From Escherichia coli (GTDB lineage: Bacteria > Pseudomonadota > Gammaproteobacteria > Enterobacterales > Enterobacteriaceae): a stretch of DNA of 64,000 nucleotides. Position 1 is the first letter of the stretch. Each line of letters begins with the position of its first letter. A program made the position numbers. The stretch lies in NCBI RefSeq assembly GCF_003991155.1, contig NZ_CP031293.1. One strand, written 5' to 3'. Positions 43,901 to 46,900 of the stretch are shown piece by piece.

Positions 43901-46900
43901 TGCGTTAACACTTGAACTCGCCGGTATCATTTTCTCCTTTATGCTGATCAACCTATTTGATTCATCAGGAACATTAATTGGTGTAACTGATAAAGCTGGC
44001 TTAATAGATAGTAACGGTAAATTCCCCAATATGAATAAGGCGCTGTATGTTGATAGCGTCAGTTCGGTGGCGGGTGCGTTTATCGGTACCTCGTCTGTTA
44101 CCGCCTATATTGAAAGTACTTCAGGTGTGGCTGTCGGTGGTCGCACGGGGCTGACTGCGGTTGTGGTCGGCGTTATGTTCCTGTTGGTTATGTTCTTCTC
44201 ACCGCTGGTGGCGATGGTTCCTCCTTACGCAACCGCCGGAGCGTTAATCTTTGTTGGCGTGCTGATGACTTCGAGCCTGGCGCGCGTTAACTGGGATGAT
44301 TTTACCGAATCGGTGCCCGCATTTATTACCACGGTGATGATGCCCTTTACTTTCTCGATCACCGAAGGGATTGCACTCGGCTTTATGTCGTACTGCATCA
44401 TGAAAGTGTGCACCGGGCGCTGGCGCGATCTGAACCTGTGTGTGGTGGTGGTCGCAGCTCTGTTTGCACTGAAGATTATTCTGGTGGATTAGTAACTGGC
44501 GAGGGTTTCCAGATATTATGAGTTCTGATTACGCAGGAGAACTCATGATCTGGATAATGCTCGCCACGCTGGCGGTAGTGTTTGTGGTTGGTTTTCGGGT
44601 GCTGACATCCGGGGCCAGAAAAGCGATTCGCCGTCTCAGCGATCGGCTGAACATCGATGTCGTACCCGTGGAGTCGATGGTCGATCAAATGGGAAAGTCA
44701 GCCGGTGACGAATTTTTACGTTATTTGCATCGTCCGGATGAGTCGCACCTGCAAAACGCCGCGCAGGTGTTGCTCATCTGGCAAATTGTCATTGTCGATG
44801 GTAGCGAACAGAACCTGCTGCAATGGCATCGGATTTTACAAAAAGCACGCCTTGCCGCGCCGATTACTGATGCTCAGGTCAGGCTGGCGCTGGGTTTTCT
44901 GCGCGAAACCGAACCTGAAATGCAGGATATCAATGCTTTTCAGATGCGCTATAACGCGTTCTTTCAGCCTGCCGAGGGCGTTCACTGGCTGCATTAAAAC
45001 CGCTTCGTCTTATCAGCCTACAGACCGCGCCTGACCTGGTGGGTGGATAAGGCGTGTACGTCGCATCCGGTATCGGTATTGACAGTAGGTGAACGCATTA
45101 TCTACGTTCTATTTACAGCAGCACCTCCAGCCCGTGTTTTTGCACAATGCTGAGCAGTTTTAATGAAATGCCATTGGGGCGTTTAGCGCCACTTTCCCAT
45201 TTTTGTACAGTTGAAACGCTGGTATTGAGATAGTGAGCGAAGACGGGCTGACTCACTTTTAATTTTTCCCGCAGTGCTTTTATCTCAACAGGTTGTAAGT
45301 CTTGCACGCTGGTCAGGCAGGCTTTGTCAAAAGTACGCATCGTTTCGGCAGAAATAGCATCGACGCTGGACAATCCAGCCGCTGCGCTGTGAATAGCCTC
45401 AAATGCAGGACTTTTAAATTTAGTTTTTGCAGTCATAGCAGATCTCTGTCAGTTCTTTAGTGTAATCATTGCTGTCAGTTGGGCTTTCGTCAGGAAGGCA
45501 TAATGCTTTGCAGGTTCACGAAACCCAGCCAGTACCTGACTATTAATGTTCGACATATCCTGTTTTGCATATAAAAACGTGTAAAACCAATTGCTTCCCC
45601 CTTTCGCCAGAATAATTGCACGCTCACGATTTCGGTGAAGGCGCTTTTTAAAAACGCCACCACCAAGTGCATCAGCTTTACCTTGTTCCGTTTCTAAAAT
45701 GGCCCGGCACAACTCTTCATCTGTCATTGCATGAGACCTGGCTTCCCTTGCAAACTATTTGGTTTTAAACACGCGTATATCGTTGAGATCCTGTTATTAA
45801 AGTATATCACCAAGTGCAATACTTTATCCCTTATTCCCAACCCCATTGCGAAAATGCATATCACCTCGCCCTATGATTTTTATTTCTTCGAGCAGCCTCG
45901 AACTTTTCCCACAACACCGTAAAAGTTGCAAAAACGTTAAATGCGTCACACATTTCAATGTTAAAGTGGTCGGCTTTTCCCCTGAAACATGCCACGGGTA
46001 ACACCATGAGTGAATTTATTGCCGAAAACCGCGGCGCGGATGCCATCACCCGACCGAACTGGTCAGCCGTTTTCTCGGTGGCGTTTTGCGTCGCCTGTCT
46101 GATTATCGTTGAGTTTTTGCCCGTCAGTTTGTTGACGCCAATGGCCCAGGATTTAGGCATTTCGGAAGGGGTTGCCGGGCAATCGGTGACCGTGACCGCA
46201 TTTGTGGCAATGTTTGCCAGTTTGTTTATTACCCAGACAATTCAGGCCACTGACCGCCGCTACGTTGTTATTTTGTTTGCCGTTTTGCTGACGCTCTCCT
46301 GCTTGCTGGTTTCCTTTGCTAACTCATTCAGTTTGCTTTTAATCGGTCGTGCCTGTCTGGGGCTGGCGCTGGGCGGGTTCTGGGCGATGTCGGCGTCGCT
46401 GACCATGCGTCTGGTACCGCCGCGTACGGTGCCGAAGGCGCTGTCGGTGATCTTCGGCGCGGTTTCTATTGCGCTGGTGATTGCCGCACCGTTGGGCAGT
46501 TTTTTAGGCGAGCTTATCGGTTGGCGCAATGTCTTTAATGCGGCGGCGGTGATGGGCGTGCTGTGTATTTTCTGGATTATCAAATCATTGCCTTCGCTGC
46601 CAGGCGAACCCTCGCATCAGAAACAAAATACTTTCCGCTTATTACAACGTCCGGGTGTGATGGCAGGGATGATCGCCATCTTCATGTCTTTCGCCGGGCA
46701 GTTTGCTTTCTTCACGTATATTCGCCCGGTGTATATGAACCTGGCGGGATTCGGCGTGGATGGTTTAACGCTGGTGCTGTTGAGTTTTGGTATCGCCAGC
46801 TTTATTGGTACGTCGCTTTCGTCGTTCATTCTTAAACGTTCGGTAAAACTGGCCTTAGCGGGCGCGCCGTTAATACTGGCAGTGAGTGCGTTGGTGCTGA

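What the first reader, a model, noticed from the sequence alone, without database searches (positions are those of the whole stretch)
45113..45727. Two-gene toxin-antitoxin-like cassette inserted between yicN and nepI
A 92-aa basic protein and a 107-aa protein with a C-terminal XRE-type HTH are co-oriented and 12 bp apart, in the toxin-first order typical of HigBA-like modules. I do not recall any genes between yicN and nepI in K-12, and a REP cluster lies just upstream (45005-45075), so this looks like an accessory insertion. Such cassettes can act as addiction modules and have been linked to phage defence.
Basis: partly seen in the sequence, partly recalled or inferred. Interest (0 to 1): 0.45.

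Follow-up and report, generated by a model that had tools for sequence, protein, structure and literature searches.

The report
Decayed HigBA2-type toxin-antitoxin cassette
Between yicN and nepI lies a well-known kind of two-gene toxin-antitoxin module, but in this strain the toxin gene is broken by a stop codon and a frameshift, so only the antitoxin gene is still intact: an ordinary, already annotated locus.

Summary
The two minus-strand ORFs are at the stated coordinates, 12 bp apart. The 92-aa ORF belongs to Pfam PF06296 (the "RelE"/HigB-2 family). The 107-aa ORF is an HTH_3 protein whose closest solved relative is Vibrio cholerae antitoxin HigA-2. The HigBA-like reading is therefore right in kind.

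The 92-aa ORF is only the remnant of a 119-aa toxin gene. Against intact E. coli alleles it has:
- an amber codon at invariant Trp8;
- a 1-nt deletion at codon 106 that removes the conserved C-terminal strand;
- E82V and L89P substitutions.

The 12-bp gap results from the frameshift; intact alleles overlap the antitoxin start by 17 nt. RefSeq marks the identical sequence as a frameshifted pseudogene. The antitoxin gene is intact.

The cassette is unlikely to be a recent insertion. It occupies the same locus in Citrobacter koseri and lies next to nepI in Salmonella, where it is the tested relBE3ST (STM3777/3778). It is in 1716 of 5426 complete E. coli genomes, and K-12 most likely lost it. No known phage-defence family matches the toxin.

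Verdict: a known family at a known locus, with a dead toxin here. Low interest.

The parts
45113..45436 (-). Intact antitoxin gene (107 aa). It has an N-terminal segment of about 45 aa followed by a C-terminal XRE/HTH_3 domain, and is HigA-2/YiaG-like.
   Evidence: HTH_3 matches at E 6.7e-8 over residues 52-96. The best solved relative is V. cholerae HigA-2 (5jaa), E 8e-10 over residues 46-102. RefSeq lists it as WP_000125643.1 'helix-turn-helix domain-containing protein'. It is full length in every sampled E. coli allele.
45420..45778 (-). Full extent of the toxin pseudogene, which corresponds to the 119-aa HigB2/PF06296 toxin of intact alleles. The native stop would overlap the antitoxin start by 17 nt.
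   Evidence: Alignment with the intact allele of strain AVS0935. Restoring Trp8 raises the PF06296 score from 92.6 to 123.2 bits and extends profile coverage from 19-114 to 2-114. RefSeq marks the identical sequence as 'frameshifted' pseudo.
45449..45727 (-). It comprises residues 18-105 of the toxin plus 4 out-of-frame residues (TLKN).
   Evidence: Its ATG is the I18M polymorphism, which occurs in 161 genomes.
45755..45757 (-). Amber codon TAG in place of TGG (Trp8, invariant in the family).
   Evidence: W8 is invariant in 30 of 30 homologues. The TAG allele is in 138 complete E. coli genomes and the TGG allele in 1577.
45463..45464 (-). Site of a 1-nt deletion (frameshift at codon 106). It replaces the last 14 residues, including invariant E112 and the predicted C-terminal beta-strand, and creates the 12-bp gap.
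   Evidence: The deletion allele is in 130 genomes and the undeleted allele in 1559. The AF2 model places strand 110-115 in the lost segment, and conservation is shown.
45513..45535 (-). Two further missense changes in this sub-lineage: E82V (codon 45533-45535) and L89P (codon 45512-45514), both in the predicted helix 80-94.
   Evidence: L89 is Leu in 28 of 30 homologues and E82 is Glu in 26 of 30.
45798..45826 (.). Imperfect palindrome TAAAGTATATCAC-CAA-GTGCAATACTTTA, 20-50 nt upstream of the toxin start. It is a candidate operator for the HTH antitoxin and overlaps a TATACT -10-like hexamer.
   Evidence: The core CAC-N4-GTG plus TATACTT is conserved in the E. coli O157, C. koseri and Salmonella upstream regions. 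No consensus sigma-70 promoter was called, so the function is inferred.
45073..45911 (.). Variable segment of about 840 bp. It is present here and in 1716 of 5426 E. coli genomes, and is replaced by about 40 bp in K-12.
   Evidence: There are no flanking direct or inverted repeats at its ends. GC is about 42-44%, against about 52% in the flanks.
45045..45070 (-). REP element with an adjacent partial inverted copy at about 45010-45033. It is backbone sequence shared with K-12.

Best explanation
This is a chromosomal HigB2/HigA2-type type II toxin-antitoxin operon (PF06296 toxin first, HTH antitoxin second) that has resided between yicN and nepI since before Escherichia, Citrobacter and Salmonella diverged.

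How the intact form is inferred to work: the 119-aa toxin is a RelE-fold, ribosome-dependent mRNA endonuclease. The N-terminal segment of the 107-aa antitoxin neutralises it. The antitoxin's C-terminal HTH dimer represses the operon at a palindrome upstream. Translation of the two genes is coupled through a 17-nt overlap.

What this window shows: the toxin gene has been inactivated step by step. The order was an I18M polymorphism, then an amber at Trp8, then a 1-nt deletion at codon 106, then E82V and L89P. The antitoxin gene is still intact. The locus is therefore an orphan antitoxin next to a toxin pseudogene. It should have no addiction, growth-arrest or abortive-infection activity. At most, the antitoxin still represses its own promoter.
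For: Shown by tool results:
- Family: PF06296 match at E 2.7e-26, rising to 8.9e-36 with profile positions 2-114 when Trp8 is restored. V. cholerae HigB-2 itself passes the PF06296 cut-off.
- Fold: an AF2 model of the intact allele (pLDDT 87) has HigB2 structures as its eight best PDB matches (prob 1.0, TM 0.55/0.62).
- Antitoxin: closest to HigA-2, E 8e-10.
- Lesions: seen in the translation and in the alignment to the intact allele. The identical RefSeq sequence is flagged as a pseudogene.
- The lesions are real and inherited: 138 genomes carry the amber, 130 the deletion and 161 the I18M allele. Strain MS 21-1 carries the amber without the deletion.
- The lost parts are conserved: W8 in 30/30, E112 in 30/30 and L89 in 28/30 homologues. 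The N- and C-terminal beta-strands of the model are missing from the 92-aa ORF.
- Synteny: C. koseri has yicN-TA-nepI and Salmonella has TA-nepI. Identities are 83-88% for the flanking proteins, 85% for the antitoxin and 71% for the toxin.

From papers:
- The Salmonella orthologue relE3ST (its primers map on the orthologue) reduces cultivability when expressed (PMC4366850).
- VcHigB2 is a ribosome-dependent mRNase neutralised by the N-terminus of HigA2 (PMC5416850).
- PF06296 toxins paired with YiaG-like antitoxins have been described as TA modules (PMC11980606).
Against: - The residual 92-aa ORF keeps an ATG and the residues that align with three VcHigB2 active-site residues (R46, Y70, K72). 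Residual activity is therefore not formally excluded.
- PGAP calls a 102-aa product from the amber-only allele a protein.
- The mechanism is inferred from a relative with only about 22% identity. The Tyr equivalent is Phe in a third of close homologues.
- In the one published assay, the Salmonella antitoxin did not neutralise its toxin.
- Nothing here measures expression.
- A shared location in three genera could also reflect repeated insertion at a hotspot.
Confidence: 0.85

Rival explanations
1. A functional two-gene TA (addiction or defence) module: the 92-aa protein is an active toxin neutralised by the 107-aa antitoxin.
For: - Both ORFs are open and co-oriented, and both are in TA families.
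- The core of the toxin, with residues aligning to R51, Y82 and K84 of VcHigB2, is retained.
- The Salmonella orthologue is toxic.
Against: - The ORF lacks residues 1-17, which form beta-strand 1 and most of helix 1 and include invariant W8.
- It lacks residues 106-119, the C-terminal strand with invariant E112.
- It carries L89P in a helix.
- The native 17-nt overlap with the antitoxin start is lost.
- RefSeq flags it as a pseudogene.
- Missense changes accumulated after the nonsense mutation, which fits relaxed constraint.
- There is no PADLOC match for the toxin.
Confidence: 0.06
2. The orphan antitoxin is kept by selection after toxin loss. It would act either as a transcription factor with targets beyond its own promoter, or as an 'anti-addiction' factor that neutralises related PF06296 toxins arriving on plasmids or phages.
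For: - The antitoxin is intact and identical (WP_000125643.1) in the sampled toxin-dead genomes.
- It evolves more slowly than the toxin between genera, 85% against 71% identity.
- A candidate operator is conserved.
- The Salmonella antitoxin protein was detected by mass spectrometry.
Against: - The toxin-dead clade is young: its alleles are about 98.5-99% identical to intact ones over the 740-nt cassette. An intact 324-nt gene is therefore expected by chance without any selection.
- No second target or incoming toxin was identified.
- About two thirds of E. coli genomes lack the whole cassette.
Confidence: 0.08
3. The stop codon and the frameshift are sequencing or assembly errors, and the gene is really intact.
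For: Single-base indels are common assembly errors. One genome in the collection (HS-02) shows an error-ridden copy, with 78% identity and 33 gaps.
Against: The same amber is in 138 independent complete genomes and the same deletion in 130. The deletion is in an AA dinucleotide, not a long homopolymer.
Confidence: 0.01

Closest known systems
Vibrio cholerae HigB-2/HigA-2 (VCA0468/0469; PDB 5JAA, 8A0X)
   Same: - Same Pfam family for the toxin, PF06296.
- HigB-2 structures are the best fold matches to the model of the intact E. coli toxin.
- HigA-2 is the best solved relative of the antitoxin, with the same layout of an N-terminal segment plus a C-terminal HTH.
- The gene order is toxin first.
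   Different: - Toxin identity is only about 22%, and no sequence-level PDB hit was found even with a profile.
- The E. coli clade has a short beta2-beta3 loop and an extra C-terminal strand/helix segment.
- The Tyr equivalent is not strictly conserved.
- The toxin is a pseudogene here.
Salmonella Typhimurium relBE3ST (STM3777/STM3778; SL3743/SL3744)
   Same: - It is the positional orthologue, next to nepI.
- The span is the same 667 bp with the same 17-nt overlap.
- The toxin is 69% identical and the antitoxin 80% identical.
- The toxin was shown to reduce cultivability (PMC4366850).
   Different: The Salmonella genes are intact. The antitoxin did not neutralise the toxin in that study's assay.
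PF_RelE-YiaG bicistronic modules (Gerdes, mBio 2025, PMC11980606)
   Same: A PF06296 toxin lies upstream of a YiaG/HigA2-like HTH antitoxin.
   Different: That paper highlights a subfamily with extended, disordered toxin N-termini. This toxin has none.
Salmonella SehAB (HigB-like, inhibits RNase III)
   Same: A toxin-first module with an Xre-type antitoxin in enterobacteria.
   Different: It is not the orthologue. The locus is different (STM4030.S/4031). The published SehA critical residues (Y53, D61, H88 and others) do not fit this sequence.

Membership tests
HigB2/HigA2-type (PF06296) type II TA | Toxin matches the PF06296 profile above the gathering score | tested here: met
   92.6 bits against a cut-off of 27 for the 92-aa ORF. 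123.2 bits for the reading frame with Trp8 restored.
HigB2/HigA2-type (PF06296) type II TA | Toxin has the RelE/BECR fold | tested here: met
   Tested on the intact E. coli allele. The AF2 model has pLDDT 87. The top eight PDB matches are HigB2, followed by M. tuberculosis HigB1, YoeB and YafQ.
HigB2/HigA2-type (PF06296) type II TA | Active-site residues equivalent to VcHigB2 R51, R64, Y82 and K84 | tested here: inconclusive
   R46, Y70 and K72 align with R51, Y82 and K84. The equivalent of R64 is R53 by strand topology but N63 by sequence alignment. Y70 is Phe in 10 of 30 homologues, K72 is invariant, and R46 and R53 are conserved in 27-28 of 30.
HigB2/HigA2-type (PF06296) type II TA | Antitoxin with a C-terminal XRE HTH and an N-terminal toxin-binding segment | tested here: met
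   The HTH part matches HigA-2 at E 8e-10 with the same position in the protein. Binding of the toxin by the N-terminal segment was not testable.
HigB2/HigA2-type (PF06296) type II TA | Toxin-first bicistronic operon with coupled or overlapping genes | tested here: met
   There is a 17-nt overlap in intact E. coli, C. koseri and Salmonella alleles. In the window it is replaced by a 12-bp gap because of the frameshift.
Functional type II TA module (in this strain) | Complete, uninterrupted toxin coding sequence | tested here: not met
   Amber at codon 8 and frameshift at codon 106. The identical RefSeq record is flagged as a pseudogene.
Functional type II TA module (in this strain) | Toxin inhibits growth and the antitoxin rescues | not testable with these tools
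   Only the Salmonella orthologue has been tested. Its toxin was toxic and its antitoxin did not rescue in that assay.
Known anti-phage defence system | Proteins match a defence-system model | tested here: not met
   PADLOC gives no family for the toxin. For the antitoxin it gives only weak generic HTH matches (RmrA and HTH_VI, 13-24 bits).
Recently inserted mobile or accessory element | Flanking repeats or mobility genes, and absence from the same site in related genera | tested here: not met
   There are no terminal repeats and no mobility genes. The cassette is present at the same site in C. koseri and beside nepI in Salmonella. Its lower GC is the only hint of foreign origin.

The most novel reading that the evidence does not exclude
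After the toxin died, the intact antitoxin (and possibly the truncated toxin remnant) was kept for a new role. One possibility is an anti-addiction factor that neutralises incoming PF06296 toxins of plasmids or phages. Another is a regulator acting at the divergent nepI promoter region. The stepwise allele series in E. coli (161, then 138, then 130, then at most 53 genomes) would then be a natural time course of TA domestication, not simple decay.
Probability: 0.08. Interest if true: 0.4.

Novelty: already known. Interest (0 to 1): 0.12.

Why it matters
Little is new. The family, its mechanism in Vibrio, the Salmonella orthologue and the RefSeq annotation (including the pseudogene flag) all exist already.

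The practical value is corrective:
- This strain should not be counted as carrying an active HigBA2-type module.
- The 12-bp 'operon spacing' and the 92-aa 'toxin' are products of mutation.
- The locus is better read as an ancestral cassette lost from K-12 than as an island gained here.

The nested allele counts give a small, clean example of a chromosomal toxin decaying before its antitoxin.

Tried and rejected
1. SehAB as the orthologue: rejected. Its locus and its critical residue positions do not fit.
2. A sequence search of the PDB with the intact toxin and with a 30-sequence profile found nothing. The link to HigB2 needed the Pfam model and the fold search.
3. NCBIfam has no model that matches the toxin. 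The antitoxin is below the cut-off for both NadS and MqsA.
4. The ATG-to-ATA change at codon 1 was first counted as a disabling lesion. It was dropped because O157 alleles with an otherwise intact toxin carry it too, and PGAP starts at the GTG two codons on.
5. I18M as a compensatory 'new start' created after the amber: rejected, because the ATG allele is more widespread (161 genomes) than the amber (138).
6. The consensus promoter and terminator scan found nothing in 45000-46020.
7. A paper search for the locus by flanking gene names found nothing relevant.
8. Strain HS-02 looked like an antitoxin-less variant, but it is an indel-rich assembly and was ignored.
9. The sequence type or phylogroup of the toxin-dead clade was not determined.

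Full report
**Observation**

The ORF list and the sequence confirm two minus-strand ORFs: 45449-45727 (92 aa) and 45113-45436 (107 aa). They are separated by 12 bp and lie between yicN (ending at 44997) and nepI (from about 46006). The 92-aa product is basic, with pI 9.6. The 107-aa product has an HTH_3 domain at residues 52-96.

**What the proteins are**

- The 92-aa ORF matches Pfam PF06296 ("RelE") at E 2.7e-26, but only over profile positions 19-114 of 120.
- The antitoxin's closest solved relative is V. cholerae HigA-2 (5jaa, E 8e-10). The HTH sits at the same place in a protein of the same size. The antitoxin is below the cut-off for the NCBIfam NadS and MqsA models.
- V. cholerae HigB-2 itself passes the PF06296 gathering score.
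- An AlphaFold model of the intact E. coli toxin (pLDDT 87) has HigB2 crystal structures as its eight best PDB matches (probability 1.0, TM 0.55/0.62). Other RelE-fold toxins follow.
- Sequence searches of the PDB with the toxin or with a 30-sequence profile found nothing. The relationship is therefore at family and fold level, at about 22% identity.
- A 2025 survey lists PF06296 as a ribosome-dependent mRNase family with toxin-antitoxin gene order, and describes PF06296 toxins paired with YiaG/HigA2-like antitoxins (PMC11980606).

**The toxin gene is broken**

Translating upstream of the 92-aa ORF in the same frame gives "IRVFKTK*FAREARSHA-MTDEEL...". Replacing the stop with Trp extends the Pfam match to profile positions 2-114 and raises the score from 92.6 to 123.2 bits.

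An alignment with the intact allele of strain AVS0935 (119 aa from the ATG, 117 aa as annotated from the GTG) shows the following in the window:

| Change | Position | Note |
|---|---|---|
| TGG to TAG | codon 8 (45755-45757) | amber at an invariant Trp |
| ATA to ATG | codon 18 | supplies the start of the 92-aa ORF |
| 1-nt deletion | codon 106 (45463/45464) | replaces the last 14 residues with TLKN |
| E82V and L89P | helix 80-94 | extra missense changes |

- In intact alleles the toxin stop overlaps the antitoxin start by 17 nt.
- The lost or altered positions are conserved. W8 and E112 are invariant in 30 homologues and L89 is Leu in 28 of 30.
- The model places beta-strands at residues 2-6 and 110-115. 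Both are absent from the 92-aa ORF.
- RefSeq annotates the 100% identical sequence of strain 2016C-3878 as a "frameshifted" pseudogene next to an intact HTH gene.
- The ATA at codon 1 is not counted as a lesion, because O157 alleles with an otherwise intact toxin have it too.

**The lesions are real and nested**

I used 52-55-nt queries centred on each variant, so that megablast cannot seed across a mismatch. The counts in 5426 complete E. coli genomes were:

| Allele | Genomes |
|---|---|
| I18M (ATG) | 161 |
| amber TAG | 138 |
| TGG (no amber) | 1577 |
| 1-nt deletion | 130 |
| undeleted | 1559 |

- Strain MS 21-1 has the amber without the deletion, and PGAP calls a 102-aa product there.
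- At most 53 genomes are at least 99% identical to the window across the locus.
- The inferred order of events is I18M, then the amber, then the frameshift, then E82V and L89P. This fits decay under relaxed constraint.
- The antitoxin is full length in every allele examined.

**Not a recent insertion**

- The cassette is present in 1716 of 5426 genomes, always on the chromosome. It is absent from K-12, O104:H4 and others, where about 40 bp replace about 840 bp (45073-45911).
- The REP at 45045-45070 is shared with K-12.
- No direct or inverted repeats mark the ends of the segment, and there are no mobility genes. GC is lower than in the flanks, 42-44% against about 52%.
- In Citrobacter koseri the orthologous pair lies between DUF1198/yicN and the nepI-type MFS gene. 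In Salmonella it lies beside nepI and yicS.
- E. coli to C. koseri identities are 88% for NepI, 83% for YicN, 85% for the antitoxin and 71% for the toxin.
- Vertical inheritance with loss in K-12-like lineages is the simplest reading. Repeated gain at a hotspot is not excluded.

**Experimental anchor**

The Salmonella pair is relBE3ST (STM3777/STM3778, SL3743/SL3744). Its published span of 667 bp equals 360 + 324 - 17, and the cloning primers map onto the orthologue. In that study RelE3ST reduced cultivability. RelB3ST did not neutralise it in the assay used, and RelB3ST protein was detected by mass spectrometry (PMC4366850).

SehAB is a different module.

For VcHigB2, ribosome-dependent mRNA cleavage, the active-site residues R51, R64, Y82 and K84, and neutralisation by the HigA2 N-terminus are established (PMC5416850). 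Here R46, Y70 and K72 align with R51, Y82 and K84. The R64 equivalent is ambiguous, and Y70 is Phe in a third of homologues. The catalytic mechanism is therefore inferred, not shown.

**Regulation**

A palindrome at 45798-45826 lies just upstream of the toxin start. Its core (CAC-N4-GTG followed by TATACTT) is conserved in E. coli O157, C. koseri and Salmonella. It is a candidate operator overlapping a -10-like hexamer. The consensus promoter scan called nothing.

**Defence**

PADLOC has no model that matches the toxin, and gives only weak generic HTH matches for the antitoxin. With a dead toxin, abortive infection by this locus is not possible in this strain.

**Verdict**

This is a known family at a known and annotated locus, with an experimentally tested orthologue. 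The toxin is a pseudogene here. It is wrong about function in this strain and probably wrong about the origin of the cassette.

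Noticed in passing
window 47392-57357 (+), stop at 50488-50490: Downstream of nepI lies a 9966-nt inverse autotransporter adhesin gene, annotated iatC in the near-identical RefSeq strain. K-12 and AVS0935 have yicS directly after nepI at this position. In the window the gene is split by an in-frame stop codon into ORFs of 1032 and 2266 aa. None of the 691 complete E. coli genomes that match this 55-mer has the exact sequence; the best match is 98.2%. The stop therefore appears private to this sequence.
   Followed up: partly
L013 (E. coli O157 ERL06-2497) and window 45776-45778: Codon 1 of the toxin is ATA rather than ATG in O157-type alleles with an otherwise intact toxin, and also in the window. 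The AGGA Shine-Dalgarno is spaced for that codon (10 nt) and not for the GTG that PGAP uses (16 nt). Toxin translation may therefore be naturally attenuated in those lineages.
   Followed up: partly
L010 (NZ_CP172818.1, strain HS-02): This record's copy of the cassette is only 78% identical, with 33 gaps, and no antitoxin is annotated. It looks like an indel-rich assembly and not a biological variant.
   Followed up: partly
protein clusters P0006, P0057, P0097 (E. coli toxin variants): Other E. coli copies of this toxin carry different lesions: an internal deletion, and frameshifts at other positions. This suggests independent inactivation events beyond the clade studied here.
   Followed up: no
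L013 1-693 (O157 ERL06-2497): The neighbouring adeQ gene is annotated as a frameshifted pseudogene in this O157 strain.
   Followed up: no
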